This document shows, piece by piece, positions 5,473-31,977 of a stretch of DNA of 64,000 nt (positions within the stretch are counted from its first letter, which is position 1; every line of letters begins with the position of its first letter). The notes under the pieces are model-generated. The model ran no database searches, had not been told where the DNA came from, and worked only from the letters and a program-made list of their open reading frames with translations. The translations under genes were made by a program, and so were the position numbers. Location: the NCBI GenBank assembly GCA_041617635.1, contig JBFJOO010000006.1, positions 18,756-82,755 of the forward strand, in the 5' to 3' direction. The DNA is from Burkholderiales bacterium. Its GTDB lineage: Bacteria; Pseudomonadota; Gammaproteobacteria; Burkholderiales; SG8-39.

Positions 5473-6354
5473 ATGAAAGTTGGATTCATCGGACTGGGCC
5501 GCATGGGCCAGGGAATCGCCGGCCGCGTGGTCGGCGCGGGCCACGATCTCTGCGTTTACAACCGCACTCCGGAAAAGGCTGCGGCGCTCGGCAAGGCGGG
5601 CGCGAAGATCGTGAAATCGATCGCCAGTGCCTGCGAGGGCCGCGAGGTGGTCATCACGATGCTCGCCCACGACGAGGCGCTGGACGAGGTCACGCGCGGC
5701 GCAGGCGGGGTGCTCGCATCGCTCCCGAAGGGAGCCATCCACGTCGCGATGGGCACGCACAGCGTCGCCATGACGCGCGCGATGAGCCAGGCGCATGTCG
5801 ATGCGGGCCTGGTCTTCGTTGCCGCGCCGGTGCAGGGACGACCGGAGGTCGCCGCCACGGGACAGATCGGCATCTTTGCAGCGGGCCCCGCCGATGCCGT
5901 CGCGCGCTGTCGTCCACTGTTCGAAGTTATCGGCCGGAAAACCTACGAGGCCGGGACTGATCAGACCACCGCGGCCGCGATCAAGGTCGCGCACAACATG
6001 GTCCTCGGCTGCGCGATCGAGGCGCTCGGCGAGGGATTCGTGCTCGTGGAGAAATACGGCGTGGCGCGCCAGCTCTTCTACGAGGTGCTCACCGACGTCC
6101 TCTTCGCATGTCCCGCCTACAAGGGCTACGGCAAGATCATTGCCGACGAGGACTACGACCGCGTCGGCATCACCGCGATTCTCGGACTCAAGGACGCGAA
6201 TCTCGCGCTCGACGCCGCGGAAGCCGTCACGGTGCCACTGCCGAGCGCGAACGTTTGGCGCGAACGGCTCATCGGCGCGGTCGCGCACGGGCTCGCGGAG
6301 AAGGACCAGTCCGCCGTCGCCCACGCGCAGGCCAAGGCGAGCGGGTTGCGTTAG
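5473..6354 (+). CDS. NAD(P)-dependent oxidoreductase, 3-hydroxyisobutyrate/beta-hydroxyacid dehydrogenase family
   Basis: VGFIGLGRMG, VYNRT, APVQG and the catalytic-Lys region IKVAHN. AGGAG RBS. Confidence 0.9.
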   Translation: MKVGFIGLGRMGQGIAGRVVGAGHDLCVYNRTPEKAAALGKAGAKIVKSIASACEGREVVITMLAHDEALDEVTRGAGGVLASLPKGAIHVAMGTHSVAMTRAMSQAHVDAGLVFVAAPVQGRPEVAATGQIGIFAAGPADAVARCRPLFEVIGRKTYEAGTDQTTAAAIKVAHNMVLGCAIEALGEGFVLVEKYGVARQLFYEVLTDVLFACPAYKGYGKIIADEDYDRVGITAILGLKDANLALDAAEAVTVPLPSANVWRERLIGAVAHGLAEKDQSAVAHAQAKASGLR

Positions 6355-28791: not shown

Positions 28792-29508
28792 ATGTCACGA
28801 CTTCTCTTCCGCGATGACGCATATCTGCGCGCTTGTGAGACACGGGTCACGGGCGTCGACGCACGCGGCATCCGCCTCGAGGCGACCGTGTTCTATGCGA
28901 ATTCCGGCGGACAGCCGGGCGATACCGGCACGCTCCGGCTCGAGAACGGAACGGAGGTCCGTGTCATCGACACGGTCAAGGGGAATGGACCCGACGAAGT
29001 GGTCCACGTTCCGGCGCCCGACAGCCCGCCAGTGTCGGTGGGAATGGGCGTGCAAGCCGAGATCGACTGGCAGCGGCGGTATCGGCACATGCGCCTGCAT
29101 ACCTGCATGCATCTCCTGTGCGCCGCGGTCCCGTACGCGGTCACGGGTGGACAGATCGCGGCCGACAAAGCGCGACTCGATTTCGACACGCAGGGCAATC
29201 CGCTGGACCGGGACGCCGTGGCGACGCGCTTGAACGAGCTCATTGCGCAGGGCGCGCCGGTTGGGGCGCGTTGGATCACCGAGTCGGAACTCGCGGAGAG
29301 CCCGCAACTCGTGCGCACGATGTCGGTCAAGCCGCCGACCGGACAAGGTCGCGTGAGACTGCTCGAAGTGAGCGGCATCGATCTGCAGCCCTGCGGGGGC
29401 ACGCACGTCGGCAACACCGCGGAGATCGGCCGGGTCGTCGTGCTCAAGATCGAGAACAAGGGGCGGCAGAACCGGCGCGTAGTCGTCGGGTTCGCCGGCG
29501 AGGAGTGA
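28792..29508 (+). CDS. alaX: AlaX alanyl-tRNA editing protein
   Basis: FYANSGGQPGD, HMRLHTCMH and PCGGTHV zinc/editing motifs. Confidence 0.93.
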   Translation: MSRLLFRDDAYLRACETRVTGVDARGIRLEATVFYANSGGQPGDTGTLRLENGTEVRVIDTVKGNGPDEVVHVPAPDSPPVSVGMGVQAEIDWQRRYRHMRLHTCMHLLCAAVPYAVTGGQIAADKARLDFDTQGNPLDRDAVATRLNELIAQGAPVGARWITESELAESPQLVRTMSVKPPTGQGRVRLLEVSGIDLQPCGGTHVGNTAEIGRVVVLKIENKGRQNRRVVVGFAGEE

Positions 29509-30083
29509 GGCGCGAGACGCGCGCGGGTGTAACCGAGGCTGCTCCCGGTCGGGCAACGATCCGCGCGAGCGTGCTCGCGGACGTGCCCGCGATCACCACG
29601 ATCTACGCGCACCACGTTCTCAACGGGCTTGCTTCGTTCGAGACCGTCGCGCCGGACGAAGCGGAGATCGCGCGCCGCCGTGATGCGATACTCGCCCGCG
29701 GCCTGCCTTACCAGGTGGCCTTGCTCGATGGCAACATCGCCGGCTACGCCTACGCCGGACCATACCGGGCGCGTGCTGCCTATCGCTACACGCTGGAGGA
29801 CTCGGTGTATGTCGATCCATCAGCGGCCCGGCGCGGCATCGGGCGCGCGCTCCTCGAGTCGCTGCTCGCGACTTGCGCGACGCTCGGCTATCGGCAAATG
29901 ATCGCGGTGATCGGTGATAGCCAAAACACGGCATCGATCACGCTGCACGAGGCATGCGGCTTCACGCGCGCCGGGTTATTGCGGAGCGTGGGTTACAAGC
30001 ATCGGCGTTGGGTGGACAGCGTGCTCATGCAACGCTCGCTGGGAGCTAGGGACACCGCCGCACTGGAGCAAGGCGAGACGTGA
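29505..30083 (+). CDS. GNAT N-acetyltransferase, phosphinothricin/YncA family
   Basis: ASFE, YAYAGPYR, EDSVYV, LHEACGF and GYKHRRWVD. GTGA overlap with alaX; start uncertain. Confidence 0.9.
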   Translation: MRRETRAGVTEAAPGRATIRASVLADVPAITTIYAHHVLNGLASFETVAPDEAEIARRRDAILARGLPYQVALLDGNIAGYAYAGPYRARAAYRYTLEDSVYVDPSAARRGIGRALLESLLATCATLGYRQMIAVIGDSQNTASITLHEACGFTRAGLLRSVGYKHRRWVDSVLMQRSLGARDTAALEQGET

Positions 30084-30204
30084 ACGCGTCATACGATCCG
30101 CGCCCGCGACACGCGCAACTTGCGCGGCAAGCGGCAAGATGCTATCGAGAAGGTGGCGCTCAGCCAAACGTCGTCAACGGGGCACCTATCAGAGGAGGCA
30201 GCAC

Positions 30205-30618
30205 ATGGCCGACACCATACGCAAGACCGACTACTTCGCGATTCAGGTTCCGAACCGCCCGGGTTCCGGCGCGCGCGTCCTCGCCGGGCTCAAGGCGGAG
30301 GGCGTCAACCTGATTGCATTCACGGCGTTTCCGAACGGGAAGACGGCGCAAGTCGACCTGGTTCCAGAGCGCACCGCGACGCTTCGCCGCGCGGCGAAAA
30401 AGCTCAACCTTCGCCTGGGCAAGCGCAAGACGTGCTTCATCATTCGCGGTGACGATCGGGTGGGCGCGCTCGCGAACACGTTGCAGCGATTGGCGGCCGC
30501 GCGTATCAACGTCAGGGCGCTCGATGCGGTCATCGCCGGCAAGGGCCGGTACGGAGCAGTGTTCTGGGTCAACCCGAAGAGCGTGGCGCGGACGTCGCGG
30601 CTGCTCCGAGCTCGATAA
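30205..30618 (+). CDS. Tandem ACT domain protein
   Basis: Two ACT-like repeats (VPNRPGSGARV; GDDRVGALA). GAGGAGG RBS. Confidence 0.8.
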   Translation: MADTIRKTDYFAIQVPNRPGSGARVLAGLKAEGVNLIAFTAFPNGKTAQVDLVPERTATLRRAAKKLNLRLGKRKTCFIIRGDDRVGALANTLQRLAAARINVRALDAVIAGKGRYGAVFWVNPKSVARTSRLLRAR

Positions 30619-30629
30619 AGCCTGCGGGC

Positions 30630-30676
30630 AAAAAAATCCTCGAGGCGGCTGAGGAGGAGGGTGCGCCGCCCCGAGG
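30630..30676 (-). terminator. Intrinsic terminator, minus strand
   Basis: 12-bp stem CCTCGGGGCGGC/GCCGCCTCGAGG followed by A-T7 on the minus strand. There is no T-run on the plus side. Confidence 0.8.
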
Positions 30677-30780
30677 GTCCACAGGAGAGAATGAAACTGC
30701 CGGAGTGCGCTGCCTGCATTGCGCGAGACATCGCACCCAAGCATCGAGGGGCCCGCCTTGCGGCGCGCCCCGCGACTGAT
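30630..30780 (-). ncRNA. Candidate trans-acting small RNA (~150 nt)
   Basis: Promoter upstream, four predicted hairpins (two with GCAA loops, two with CU-rich loops), a terminal stem plus U7, and no start-to-stop ORF inside. Confidence 0.65.
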
Positions 30781-30784
30781 TCCA

Positions 30785-30814
30785 AGCTTAGAGACTGTCT
30801 AATTATCTGTCCAA
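30785..30814 (-). promoter_or_regulatory. Sigma70-type promoter, minus strand
   Basis: TTGGAC-18 nt-TAAGCT in an AT-rich patch. Confidence 0.65.
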
Positions 30815-30850
30815 TCGATCCGGGCAATCAGGATAATCATCCTGGTTGAT
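30814..30850 (-). promoter_or_regulatory. Paired LysR (NodD/MexT/NahR-type) binding boxes
   Basis: Minus strand reads ATC-N9-GAT-N7-ATT-N9-GAT, ending exactly at the -35 hexamer. Confidence 0.7.
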
Positions 30851-30999
30851 ATCTGCGGCCCCACGCCCCGGAAAACATCCCAGGGCGTTTGGAATTCGCG
30901 CCATGGGCGCTCAGGGTGGCCGAGCGACGTCGCCCGACCCGACGTTTCGCGGGTACGACATTGATCGGCGTGATCGAACCGAGCTAGAGTATTGCCCGT

Positions 31000-31977
31000 A
31001 TGGATATTCGCGACGTTGATCTGAACCTGCTGGTGGCGCTGGATGCACTGCTCGCCGAGCGTAGCGTCACCCGCGCGGCGCAGCGGTTGAGCCTGAGCCA
31101 ACCGGCGATGTCCGCGGCTCTGGCACGGCTGCGCATCCTGTTCACCGATCCGTTGCTGCTGCGAACCGCGCGCGGAATGCTCCCCACGGCCAAGGGCGTC
31201 GAGCTCGCGGCGCCAGTCAAGCAGGTGCTCGACGAGATTGGACGGATCGTCCGGCAGGCCGAGGCGTTCGATCCGGCGCGCGCGGAAGTGACGTTCACCA
31301 TCACGGCGTCCGACTACGTGGAGTTCACCATCCTGCCGCGCCTCGTGGACCACGTCGAAGCCCGTGCACCCGGCTGCCGGCTGGCCGTTCGGCCGATCAA
31401 CTTTGCGTCCCTGCCGGAGCAGCTCGAGCGGGGCGAAGTCGACCTCGCGCTGGTGAGCGCCACCAACGCGCCGGAGAACGCACGGCTGCGGCCGCTCTAC
31501 CCCGAGCGTTTCGTCTGTGCCGTCCGGCGCGGCCATCCGCGCGCGGCGAAGCAGATCACGCTGGACGAGTTCTGCGCGCTCGAGCACGTGCTCATCTCAC
31601 CGAGTGGCGGTGCCTTCGTCGCGCAGACCGACGCCGCCCTAGCCGCGCTCGGCCGCAGCCGCAGCGTGCGGCTCTCGGTCCCGCACTTTCTCCTCATTCC
31701 CGAGATTCTCGCGCGGTCCGACATGATGGCCGTATTGCCGGAGCGCCTCGCGCGCGCCCATGCCGACCGACTGCACGTCATGGAGATCCCCTTCGAGTTG
31801 CCGCCTTACACGATCGCGCAGGTGTGGCACGAGCGGACGCATCGCGATCCCGCGCGCGCGTGGCTGCGCCAGGCGCTCGCGGAGCTCATGGAGAAGGAGG
31901 GCGCGCCGATGCCGCGGATTCCGCGTCAGCAAAAGCGCACCCGCCGGGGCGACCGCCGCGCGACCCAGGCGGTCTGA
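31000..31977 (+). CDS. LysR family transcriptional regulator (NodD/NahR/MexT-like subfamily)
   Basis: DLNLLVALDALLAERSVTRAAQRLSLSQPAMSAAL HTH, ASDY and WHERTHRDP...WLR. Confidence 0.96.
   Translation: MDIRDVDLNLLVALDALLAERSVTRAAQRLSLSQPAMSAALARLRILFTDPLLLRTARGMLPTAKGVELAAPVKQVLDEIGRIVRQAEAFDPARAEVTFTITASDYVEFTILPRLVDHVEARAPGCRLAVRPINFASLPEQLERGEVDLALVSATNAPENARLRPLYPERFVCAVRRGHPRAAKQITLDEFCALEHVLISPSGGAFVAQTDAALAALGRSRSVRLSVPHFLLIPEILARSDMMAVLPERLARAHADRLHVMEIPFELPPYTIAQVWHERTHRDPARAWLRQALAELMEKEGAPMPRIPRQQKRTRRGDRRATQAV

What the first reader, a model, noticed from the sequence alone, without database searches (positions are those of the whole stretch)
30630..30780. Candidate novel LysR-controlled small RNA divergent from the regulator (GcvA/GcvB-like layout)
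Seen in sequence: the 380-bp gap between the ACT gene and lysR contains, on the minus strand, TTGGAC-18-TAAGCT, then ~150 nt, then a 12-bp GC stem and U7. The ~150 nt fold into a GCAA-capped hairpin (30771-30748), a second GCAA-looped hairpin (GUGCG...CGCAC), a hairpin with loop UUUCAUUCUCUC, and the terminator stem. Both ATG-initiated minus-strand frames run past the terminator without a stop, so the transcript holds no complete ORF. The terminator points away from the ACT gene, so it does not serve that gene. Established: a LysR gene divergent from its sRNA target is the GcvA-GcvB arrangement. Inference: an unannotated trans-acting sRNA that is the output of this LysR.
Basis: partly seen in the sequence, partly recalled or inferred. 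Interest (0 to 1): 0.85.

Follow-up and report, generated by a model that had tools for sequence, protein, structure and literature searches.

The report
New LysR-linked anti-Shine-Dalgarno small RNA
This is a real, conserved, roughly 150-base non-coding RNA gene of uncultured Burkholderiales; it always sits back-to-back with one LysR regulator, carries that regulator's binding boxes on its promoter and displays two ribosome-binding-site look-alike decoys, so it is a new example of a well-known kind of regulator rather than a new kind.

Summary
On the minus strand, TTGGAC-18-TAAGCT (30814-30785) is followed by about 150 nt of hairpins, a 12-bp GC stem and U7 (30676-30630). There is no complete ORF. 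A covariance model of the 3' 70 nt finds one copy per genome in 33 genomes of 9 genera of one uncultured Burkholderiales family, and none in about 390 genomes of other families of the order. An orthologous LysR gene lies divergently beside it wherever the contig reaches far enough. The promoter carries a gap-free conserved nod-box-type double operator (ATC-N9-GAT-N7-ATY-N9-GAT) abutting the -35; this operator is unique in the 4.6-Mb genome. The invariant parts are a mostly unpaired CUCUCCUGUGG stretch and a CCCUCCUCCUC terminator loop, both anti-Shine-Dalgarno. No Rfam family reaches threshold; the only sub-threshold resemblance is to alphaproteobacterial CcsR1/ar14 'cuckoo' RNAs. Unstranded environmental metatranscriptome contigs cover relatives of the locus but not the flanking genes. 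In sister genera the same promoter drives a 44-48-aa hydrophobic small ORF that ends in the same CU-loop hairpin. The LysR tree indicates the ORF is ancestral and was lost in the window's genus. Verdict: a new sRNA family of a known kind (LTTR-activated, SD-masking). Targets and effector are unknown.

The parts
30630..30780 (-). sRNA gene (predicted TSS about 30780-30777, 3' end in the U-tract at 30630): two to three variable 5' hairpins, a CU-rich mostly single-stranded stretch, and a terminator with a CU-rich loop
   Evidence: Sequence. Fold z = -3.74. Homologues in 33 genomes, one per genome. No ORF.
30785..30814 (-). Promoter: -35 TTGGAC (30814-30809), 18-nt spacer, -10 TAAGCT (30790-30785)
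   Evidence: Gap-free alignment of 19 loci: TTGGAC is nearly invariant and the -10 is TAAGCT/TAGACT/TAAACT/TACACT.
30836..30850 (-). Distal LTTR box ATCAACCAGGATGAT (ATC-N9-GAT), preceded by conserved (T)TATC
   Evidence: Conserved in 19 loci while the flanks are random. The motif is the nod-box/LTTR box (PMC2794183).
30805..30828 (-). Proximal LTTR boxes. ATTGCCCGGATCGAT (ATY-N9-GAT, 30828-30814) lies 7 nt after the distal box and shares one base with the -35. The conserved dyad ATCGATTGGACAGAT (30819-30805) spans the -35.
   Evidence: columns ATCGATTGGAC.GATA have the highest information content. The full pattern ATC-N9-GAT-N7-ATY-N9-GAT is unique in the 4.58-Mb assembly.
30679..30696 (-). 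Seed A: UUUCAUUCUCUCCUGUGG. CUCCUGUGG is invariant in the 19 aligned loci. The stretch is largely unpaired, or is the loop of a weak hairpin closed by CUGUGG.
   Evidence: Alignments A1/A2. Unpaired probability 0.45-0.77 across 19 homologues.
30638..30676 (-). Terminator hairpin: 12-bp stem (30676-30665 / 30649-30638) enclosing the 15-nt loop GCACCCUCCUCCUCA (30664-30650), which is seed B
   Evidence: 100% of 192 cells paired, 2 pairs with compensatory GC<->AU changes, slid controls 34-50%. Loop unpaired probability about 1.0 in all homologues.
30630..30636 (-). U7 tract: end of the intrinsic terminator and a possible Hfq-binding 3' tail
   Evidence: Sequence. T-run conserved in all homologues. 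hfq gene present in the genome.
31000..31977 (+). Divergent LysR-type regulator (HTH_1 + LysR_substrate; NodD/LeuO/BsrA-like N-terminus MDIRDVDLNLLVALDALL)
   Evidence: Pfam. NCBIfam best hits BsrA at 225 bits and LeuO at 150 bits, both below cut-off. Orthologues adjacent to the sRNA in all loci.
30205..30618 (+). Convergent ACT-domain gene (true start ATG 30205 behind SD GAGGAGG; the 234-aa ORF from 29914 is over-extended). It is a syntenic neighbour, not part of the RNA, and a possible target.
   Evidence: Pfam ACT. Only residues about 96-234 are conserved in relatives. Start and SD. Complementarity to the seed is strong in g42 relatives but average in the window.

Best explanation
Window 30780-30630 (minus strand) encodes a stand-alone, roughly 150-nt regulatory small RNA. 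Its sigma-70-type promoter has a sub-optimal 18-nt spacer and is occupied by the divergently encoded LysR-type regulator. The regulator would bind a nod-box-like double operator: a recognition dyad near -65 and an activation dyad abutting the -35. The regulator, presumably on binding an unknown small-molecule effector, most likely activates transcription (inferred). The RNA ends in an intrinsic terminator whose 15-nt loop displays CCCUCCUCCUC. Just upstream it carries a second, largely unpaired CU-rich stretch, CUCUCCUGUGG. Both mimic the 3' end of 16S rRNA. The proposed action is base-pairing with purine-rich Shine-Dalgarno regions of several mRNAs, probably with Hfq, blocking ribosome loading and lowering translation or stability (inferred by analogy). 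Evolutionarily, the RNA is the surviving 3' part of an ancestral LysR-controlled mRNA for a 44-48-aa hydrophobic protein. The coding part is still present in sister genera and was lost in the window's genus.
For: Shown by sequence and computation:
- Promoter, hairpins, terminator and absence of an ORF.
- One copy per genome in 33 genomes of 9 genera of the family, with none in about 390 genomes of other families of the order.
- The promoter and 3' domain are conserved while the middle is variable.
- The terminator stem is 100% paired, with compensatory changes.
- CU seeds are predicted to be exposed in all 19 homologues.
- A LysR orthologue is divergently adjacent in every locus with flank. 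It is single-copy and confined to the same family. The nearest outside homologues are at most 50% identical and are linked to a different gene.
- The double ATC-N9-GAT operator is conserved gap-free and unique in the genome, with 0.09 expected by chance by my own base-composition arithmetic.
- hfq is present.
- Metatranscriptome contigs from eight environmental runs contain relatives of the RNA. In four soil runs, long collinear contigs cover the sORF+sRNA unit of a g42 relative, while the LysR and ACT flanks receive only scraps even at 80% likeness.
- The same promoter drives a homologous small ORF plus a CU-loop hairpin in genera g18, g39, g46 and g37, and a tandem arrangement in g42.
- The LysR tree places ORF-bearing lineages in all three basal clades.

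Precedent: NfeR1, with CCUCCUCCC anti-SD motifs, is activated by the LTTR LsrB bound at -72 to -57 and silences mRNAs at their translation initiation regions (PMC10746234). CU-rich double-hairpin sRNAs of Burkholderia are predicted to cover ribosome-binding sites (PMC5688073).
Against: - No strand-specific or end-mapped transcript evidence exists for this organism. The metatranscriptome contigs are unstranded, come from relatives, and some run past the terminator or over the promoter.
- No target is established. My crude genome-wide duplex scan gives plausible hits (CBS protein, TRAP and ABC solute-binding proteins, an outer-membrane channel). These hits have no demonstrated conservation.
- An anti-SD seed pairs with any strong SD, so prediction has little specificity.
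- Activation versus repression by the LysR is inferred only from box geometry.
- Covariation support is limited to the terminator, with 2 compensatory pairs. The 5' hairpins cannot be aligned across genera.
Confidence: 0.72

Rival explanations
1. Evolutionary relic: the unit is merely the decaying 5'UTR/3'UTR of a lost small-protein gene. The promoter and terminator persist, but the RNA has no function of its own.
For: Sister genera have the small ORF between the same promoter and the same 3' hairpin. g49 shows a visibly decayed ORF. The middle of the window's RNA is poorly conserved.
Against: In ORF-less lineages (g1, g3, g13, g44, g50), 31 columns of the 3' domain remain invariant and the operator and promoter stay intact with no indels. 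This holds across LysR divergence down to 60%, which indicates purifying selection on the RNA itself. g42 gave the RNA its own second LysR-box promoter, which argues that the RNA is the valuable part.
Confidence: 0.08
2. Local cis/antisense device: the unit exists to control the convergent GNAT-ACT operon. It could do so by pairing of the CU seeds with the ACT gene's extended SD, or by convergent-transcription interference or termination at the shared hairpin. It would not be a multi-target trans regulator.
For: GNAT-ACT lies convergently downstream in most loci. The ACT start carries a long purine SD (GAGGAGG in the window; AGGAGAGGAGGA in L029, a 12-nt perfect match to that genome's seed, duplex -35.7 kcal/mol).
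Against: The RNA and LysR are conserved unchanged where ACT is absent downstream (g13, g3, g50, g46, g49). In the window itself the ACT TIR pairs no better than an average gene (-15.7/-16.5 against genome means of -13.8/-11.7). The hairpin lacks a T-run on the + strand, so it is not ACT's terminator.
Confidence: 0.12
3. Protein-titrating RNA: the CU-rich loops and invariant stem are a binding platform for an RNA-binding protein (Hfq sponge, ProQ-like or ribosomal protein S1-like) rather than base-pairing seeds.
For: 7 of 12 stem pairs and the stretch GGACCCUCGGGG never vary, which is more constraint than a terminator stem needs. U-tail and hfq are present.
Against: Known CU-rich loop RNAs with the same motif act by pairing with SDs (PMC10746234). 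There is no repeated multi-site architecture like CsrB/RsmZ or CrcZ. No ProQ homologue was detected by tblastn.
Confidence: 0.06

Closest known systems
NfeR1 / alpha-r14 (Rfam RF02344) and CcsR1-4 (RF02791), the alphaproteobacterial 'cuckoo' RNAs
   Same: Hairpins whose loops display CCUCCUCC(C) anti-SD motifs, with redundant seeds that mask translation initiation regions. NfeR1 is activated by an LTTR (LsrB) bound at about -72 to -57 (PMC10746234). These are the only Rfam models giving any signal.
   Different: Scores are far below gathering (19-24 bits against 58.8-65.3). This RNA is from a different class (Betaproteobacteria). It has one loop motif plus one linear motif rather than three loops. 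The invariant CUGUGGACCC extension has no counterpart. lsrB is not adjacent to nfeR1, whereas here the regulator is always divergent.
GcvA-GcvB, OxyR-OxyS (Enterobacteria) and VtlR/LsrB-AbcR1/2 (Rhizobiales)
   Same: An LTTR gene transcribed divergently from the sRNA it controls. The sRNA represses many mRNAs at or near the RBS (GcvB and AbcR target transporter solute-binding proteins). Basis: established knowledge; VtlR paper PMC7486931 was listed.
   Different: There is no sequence or structural homology. GcvB uses GU-rich and AbcR CUCCCA-type seeds. The operator here is a nod-box-type double ATC-N9-GAT.
Betaproteobacterial double-hairpin 'toxic small RNAs' (Rfam RF02278; ncS27 etc. of Burkholderia) and Neisseria NmsR/RcoF
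   Same: Same bacterial class. CU-rich unpaired stretches are predicted to cover RBSs (PMC5688073).
   Different: No cmscan hit at E<=10 in the window or eight relatives. Those RNAs are about 65-70 nt, multi-copy and not LysR-linked. This one is about 150 nt and single-copy, with a dedicated regulator.
3'UTR-derived and dual-function sRNAs (e.g. SgrS/SgrT, mRNA 3'-end sRNAs such as CpxQ, DapZ)
   Same: In sister genera the same CU-loop domain is the 3' end of a small-protein mRNA.
   Different: In the window the coding part is gone and the RNA is a primary transcript from the regulator's promoter.

Membership tests
Rfam RF02791 CcsR1 | Covariance-model score at or above the gathering threshold (65.3 bits) | tested here: not met
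   19.1 bits, E = 0.16 in the window. 17.5-21.5 bits in relatives. Only the CU-loop hairpin aligns.
Rfam RF02344 ar14 (NfeR1) | Covariance-model score at or above 58.8 bits; three CCUCCUCCC hairpin or linker motifs | tested here: not met
   No hit in the window. 20-24 bits in L008/L009. There are two CU motifs, not three.
Rfam RF02278 Betaproteobacteria toxic small RNA (double-hairpin RNAs) | Any covariance-model match | tested here: not met
   Not listed even at E<=10 in the window or 8 related loci.
LTTR-controlled divergent sRNA (GcvB/OxyS/AbcR type) | LTTR gene divergently adjacent, with the association conserved | tested here: met
   Adjacent in all loci with flank. 33 sRNA-positive genomes all have the single-copy orthologue.
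LTTR-controlled divergent sRNA (GcvB/OxyS/AbcR type) | LTTR box(es) (T-N11-A / ATC-N9-GAT) at recognition (about -65) and activation (about -35) positions | tested here: met
   ATC-N9-GAT-N7-ATY-N9-GAT ends at the -35. It is gap-free conserved in 19 loci and unique in the genome.
LTTR-controlled divergent sRNA (GcvB/OxyS/AbcR type) | Transcription depends on the LTTR | not testable with these tools
   Needs a reporter fusion with and without the regulator, plus EMSA or footprint.
Hfq-dependent trans-acting sRNA | Rho-independent terminator with U-tail; hfq in the genome | tested here: met
   12-bp stem + U7.
Hfq-dependent trans-acting sRNA | Discrete transcript of defined ends; Hfq binding; seed-dependent target regulation | tested here: inconclusive
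   Unstranded metatranscriptome contigs cover relatives of the RNA but not the flanking genes. Ends, strand, Hfq binding and targets are not determinable.

The most novel reading that the evidence does not exclude
One bacterial family appears to preserve every stage of the conversion of an mRNA into an sRNA. The stages are listed below.
- Ancestral state (g46, g37, g18, g39): a LysR-activated mRNA for a 44-48-aa membrane peptide whose 3' end is an anti-SD hairpin.
- Intermediate state (g42): the 3' domain has acquired its own copy of the LysR operator/promoter.
- Decay in progress (g49).
- Derived state (the window's genus and four others): a pure stand-alone sRNA.

If so, the regulator's real conserved output is the anti-SD RNA. 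The locus, next to a phosphinothricin/arsinothricin-type N-acetyltransferase and an ACT protein, could form a response that shuts down transporter synthesis when a toxic amino-acid analogue is sensed.
Probability: 0.4. Interest if true: 0.65.

Novelty: new member of a known kind. Interest (0 to 1): 0.5.

Why it matters
It adds an uncatalogued sRNA family (no Rfam model) with a dedicated transcription factor in a large, entirely uncultured family of soil and sediment Burkholderiales, where no riboregulator is known. The pair comes with a clean, unique operator, so it is a ready-made LTTR-promoter-sRNA module for heterologous dissection. The CCUCCUCC-loop solution recurs independently of the alphaproteobacterial cuckoo RNAs. 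The sister-genus comparison gives an unusually complete natural series for how a stand-alone sRNA can arise from the 3' end of a small-protein mRNA. It does not reveal a new regulatory principle.

Tried and rejected
- Consensus promoter/terminator scan: missed both real elements because of the 18-nt spacer with a weak -10 and the 15-nt loop. It was uninformative.
- Rfam at permissive E-value on the window and on 8 relatives: only sub-threshold CcsR1/ar14/ErsA hits through the CU-loop hairpin. Membership rejected.
- Coding hypothesis: no complete sense ORF. The antisense ORF (30661-30849, +) is conserved only where the nucleotide sequence is conserved, and it frame-shifts between relatives. Rejected.
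- Search of the window's own genome for the sister-genus small protein (tblastn): only low-complexity Ala-rich noise. Pfam on the peptides gave nothing.
- Bidirectional-terminator idea for the ACT gene: no T-run on the + strand, and the hairpin is conserved where ACT is absent. Rejected.
- Target prediction: a crude GC3-based gene call (3796 TIRs) plus RNAduplex gave candidates. The orthologue test of the best double hit (TRAP solute-binding protein) failed to inform, because only 2 of 20 genomes have a true orthologue. I stopped there, and targets remain open.
- TSS or 3' end from metatranscriptome contigs: the contigs are unstranded unitigs. In g42 relatives they read through the sRNA promoter from the upstream sORF promoter and past the terminator. 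In X23 an adapter-joined contig end lies about 13 nt downstream of the -10 of L003, which is suggestive only.
- Weak R1 hits in genus g14 (model positions 22-70 only, no LysR orthologue): treated as chance terminators.

Full report
**1. What is in the sequence**

All coordinates in this section are on the minus strand.

| Feature | Coordinates | Sequence / note |
|---|---|---|
| Distal dyad | 30850-30836 | ATCAACCAGGATGAT (ATC-N9-GAT) |
| Spacer | | 7 nt |
| Proximal dyad | 30828-30814 | ATTGCCCGGATCGAT (ATT-N9-GAT) |
| -35 | 30814-30809 | TTGGAC; the last T of the proximal dyad is its first T |
| Third dyad | 30819-30805 | ATCGATTGGACAGAT, spans the -35 |
| Spacer | | 18 nt |
| -10 | 30790-30785 | TAAGCT |

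From about 30780 the predicted transcript folds as follows (-81.4 kcal/mol; shuffles -65.8 +/- 4.2; z = -3.74; 0 of 200 shuffles as stable).

- A GCAA-capped hairpin at 30776-30743.
- A second hairpin at 30742-30699.
- A weak hairpin whose loop is UUUCAUUCUCUC, at 30695-30678.
- A 12-bp GC-rich stem (30676-30665 / 30649-30638) around the loop GCACCCUCCUCCUCA.
- A, then U7 (30636-30630).

The + strand has A7 before the hairpin and no T-run after it, so the terminator serves only the minus strand. No complete ORF lies in the transcript.

**2. Neighbours**

- lysR (31000-31977, +) has HTH_1 and LysR_substrate domains. Its best NCBIfam matches are BsrA (225 bits, cut-off 480) and LeuO, so it belongs to the NodD/LeuO-like branch but to no named equivalog.
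- The convergent ACT gene really starts at ATG 30205, behind GAGGAGG.
- Upstream of the ACT gene lies a GNAT related to phosphinothricin/arsinothricin N-acetyltransferases.

**3. Conservation**

- BLASTN of the 400-bp gap against 40 relatives hit all 7 genomes of the genus and 2 other genera. The last 60 nt were 85-95% identical, far above the surrounding DNA.
- A pattern scan of 185,579 species genomes found 19 true loci, all uncultured Burkholderiales or 'beta proteobacterium' MAGs. It also found 2 chance hits inside CDSs of unrelated phyla.
- The RNAs are 127-169 nt. The 5' two-thirds cannot be aligned between genera. The last 70 nt have 31 invariant columns.
- The terminator helix is paired in 100% of 192 cells. 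Two pairs show GC<->AU compensatory changes plus GU intermediates. Slid controls give 34-50%.
- A covariance model of this 3' domain (R1) finds exactly one copy per genome. It hits 39 of 317 genomes of the GTDB family.
- Six of those hits (genus g14) match only the bare hairpin and lack the regulator, so I discount them. That leaves 33 genomes in 9 genera.
- In 401 genomes sampled across the order, there is no hit outside the family.

**4. The LysR link**

- tblastn shows the orthologous LysR (55-95% identity) divergently upstream of the RNA in every locus whose contig reaches that far.
- The orthologue is single-copy and present in 54 of 317 family genomes.
- Outside the family the best homologues are at most 50% identical. 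They sit instead next to an NQO/flavodoxin-like reductase gene.
- Nineteen promoter regions align without a single gap. High-information columns spell (T)TATC-N9-GAT-N7-AT(C/T)-N6-ATCGATTGGAC-GATA-N13-CTA-ACT, while everything around them is random.
- ATC-N9-GAT is the nod-box/LTTR motif (PMC2794183).
- The two-dyad layout, with the second dyad abutting the -35, is the classical recognition-site plus activation-site geometry (established knowledge). With the long 18-nt spacer, it suggests an activator-dependent promoter (inference).
- The double box occurs once in the 4.58-Mb assembly, against about 0.09 expected by my own base-composition arithmetic. In this genome the RNA therefore looks like the regulator's one dedicated target.

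**5. Functional anatomy of the RNA**

- In all 19 homologues folded, the terminator loop (CCUCCUCCUC core) is unpaired with probability about 1.0. The upstream CU-rich stretch has an unpaired probability of 0.45-0.77.
- In several genera CCACAG(G) pairs with the invariant CUGUGG, so the upstream CU stretch becomes a hairpin loop too. This gives two tandem CU-loop hairpins.
- Both motifs are complementary to purine-rich Shine-Dalgarno sequences.
- hfq is present.
- The only Rfam signals, all far below threshold, are to CcsR1 and ar14/NfeR1, whose defining module is a CCUCCUCCC hairpin loop.
- NfeR1 is itself activated by an LTTR (LsrB, -72 to -57) and silences mRNAs at their initiation regions through redundant anti-SD seeds (PMC10746234).
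- Burkholderia double-hairpin RNAs with CU-rich loops are predicted to do the same (PMC5688073), but their model RF02278 gives no hit here.
- I therefore commit to SD masking in trans as the mechanism. This is by analogy, not demonstration.

**6. Expression**

The organism is uncultured.

- Logan contigs of four metatranscriptomes (estuary, sediment, wastewater) contain close relatives of the window's RNA. In X23 a 219-nt contig of depth 10.9 begins with a Nextera adapter joined about 13 nt downstream of the -10 of L003.
- For the g42 relative L029, four soil RNA runs give long collinear contigs over 5697-6190, the sORF+sRNA unit.
- In those runs the LysR and ACT flanks receive only 30-70-nt scraps of unrelated contigs, even at 80% likeness.
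- This argues for preferential transcription of the unit rather than DNA carry-over. However, contigs have no strand, some run past the terminator, and X21 also covers the promoter. Ends and strand remain unproven.

**7. Unexpected relatives**

| Genus | Arrangement |
|---|---|
| g18, g39 | LysR orthologue present, no R1 hit. The same boxed promoter drives a conserved 44-aa hydrophobic ORF (e.g. MDFGLAKVIVGYLSASAAALVASVKLACILGGPMMVTFSGSFFR), followed by a hairpin with loop CCUCCUCCUCC and a separate terminator |
| g46, g37 | The ORF is followed directly by the R1-type 3' domain |
| g42 | The ORF has its own ATCGATTTGAAGGATA promoter and the sRNA has a second, double-boxed promoter |
| g49 | Retains a decayed ORF |

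- The peptides align without gaps.
- A LysR tree rooted with the outside homologues places ORF-bearing lineages in all three basal clades, with ORF-less ones nested. At least 5 changes are needed. Independent gain of a homologous peptide is implausible, so the ORF is ancestral and was lost repeatedly, including in the window's genus.
- No copy of the peptide exists elsewhere in the window's genome.

**8. Targets**

- A crude scan was run: 3796 GC3-called starts, with RNAduplex against both seeds.
- It ranks a CBS-domain protein, a TRAP solute-binding protein (both seeds, -27.7/-24.1 kcal/mol), an ABC solute-binding protein, a FadL-like porin and methylmalonate-semialdehyde dehydrogenase near the top.
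- Transporter binding proteins are the classical prey of GcvB, AbcR and NfeR1. However, the one orthologue test I could afford was uninformative.
- The adjacent ACT gene has a strikingly extended SD in g42/g44 (a 12-nt perfect match in L029) but pairs only averagely in the window.
- Targets and effector are open.

**9. Verdict**

It is a new sRNA family, but of a well-known kind: a divergent LTTR-controlled, anti-SD, probably Hfq-assisted riboregulator. Its origin from a small-protein mRNA and its clean unique operator make it a good experimental module. They do not make it a new principle.

Noticed in passing
L091-L094, L096 (g18); L085, L088-L090 (g39); L057-L058 (g46); L141 (g37); L014, L019, L020, L023, L029, L030 (g42): A conserved 44-48-aa hydrophobic small ORF (invariant Met1 and Tyr12, Ala-rich helix, no Pfam family) is transcribed from the LysR-boxed promoter in sister genera. 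It is absent from the window's genome.
   Followed up: partly
window 30956-30978 (minus strand), 20-45 nt upstream of the lysR ATG: TTCGATCACGCCGATCAATGTCG is shared with L002/L003 (ATCGATCAATCTGATCAATGTCG) and resembles the ATCGAT-type half-sites. It is possibly the lysR promoter or autoregulatory site, or a remnant of the sORF promoter seen in g42.
   Followed up: no
window 29118-30618: A GNAT related to phosphinothricin/arsinothricin N-acetyltransferases (ArsN1b 145 bits, below cut-off) and a 138-aa ACT protein lie convergently next to the sRNA in most genera. Both longest ORFs are over-extended at the N-terminus: the real ACT start is 30205, and the GNAT is conserved only from about residue 144.
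   Followed up: partly
L029 about 5697-5755 and the equivalent in L014, L023, L030: In g42 an extra element of about 130 nt follows the sRNA terminator. It has a U7-stem-A7 hairpin (bidirectional-terminator-like) and a conserved CCUCGG-N4-CCGAGCC hairpin. Metatranscriptome contigs run through it.
   Followed up: no
L059, L060 (g49): Between the boxed promoter and the R1-like 3' domain there is a broken reading frame (MKTLRSR* ... GAMLKLAMLKLG*). Its tail resembles the ...PGSLLKVL*/...PGSMLRPGS* ends of the g46/g37 peptides, so it is an apparent pseudogene of the small ORF.
   Followed up: no
G000 contig C11, about 65813 (+), outside the window: An AT-rich stretch, AAATCGATTGAACTAATACTTTCAAG, resembles the ATCGATTnGACnnATA core (3 mismatches). 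It is the only other remotely similar site in the genome and has no double box.
   Followed up: no
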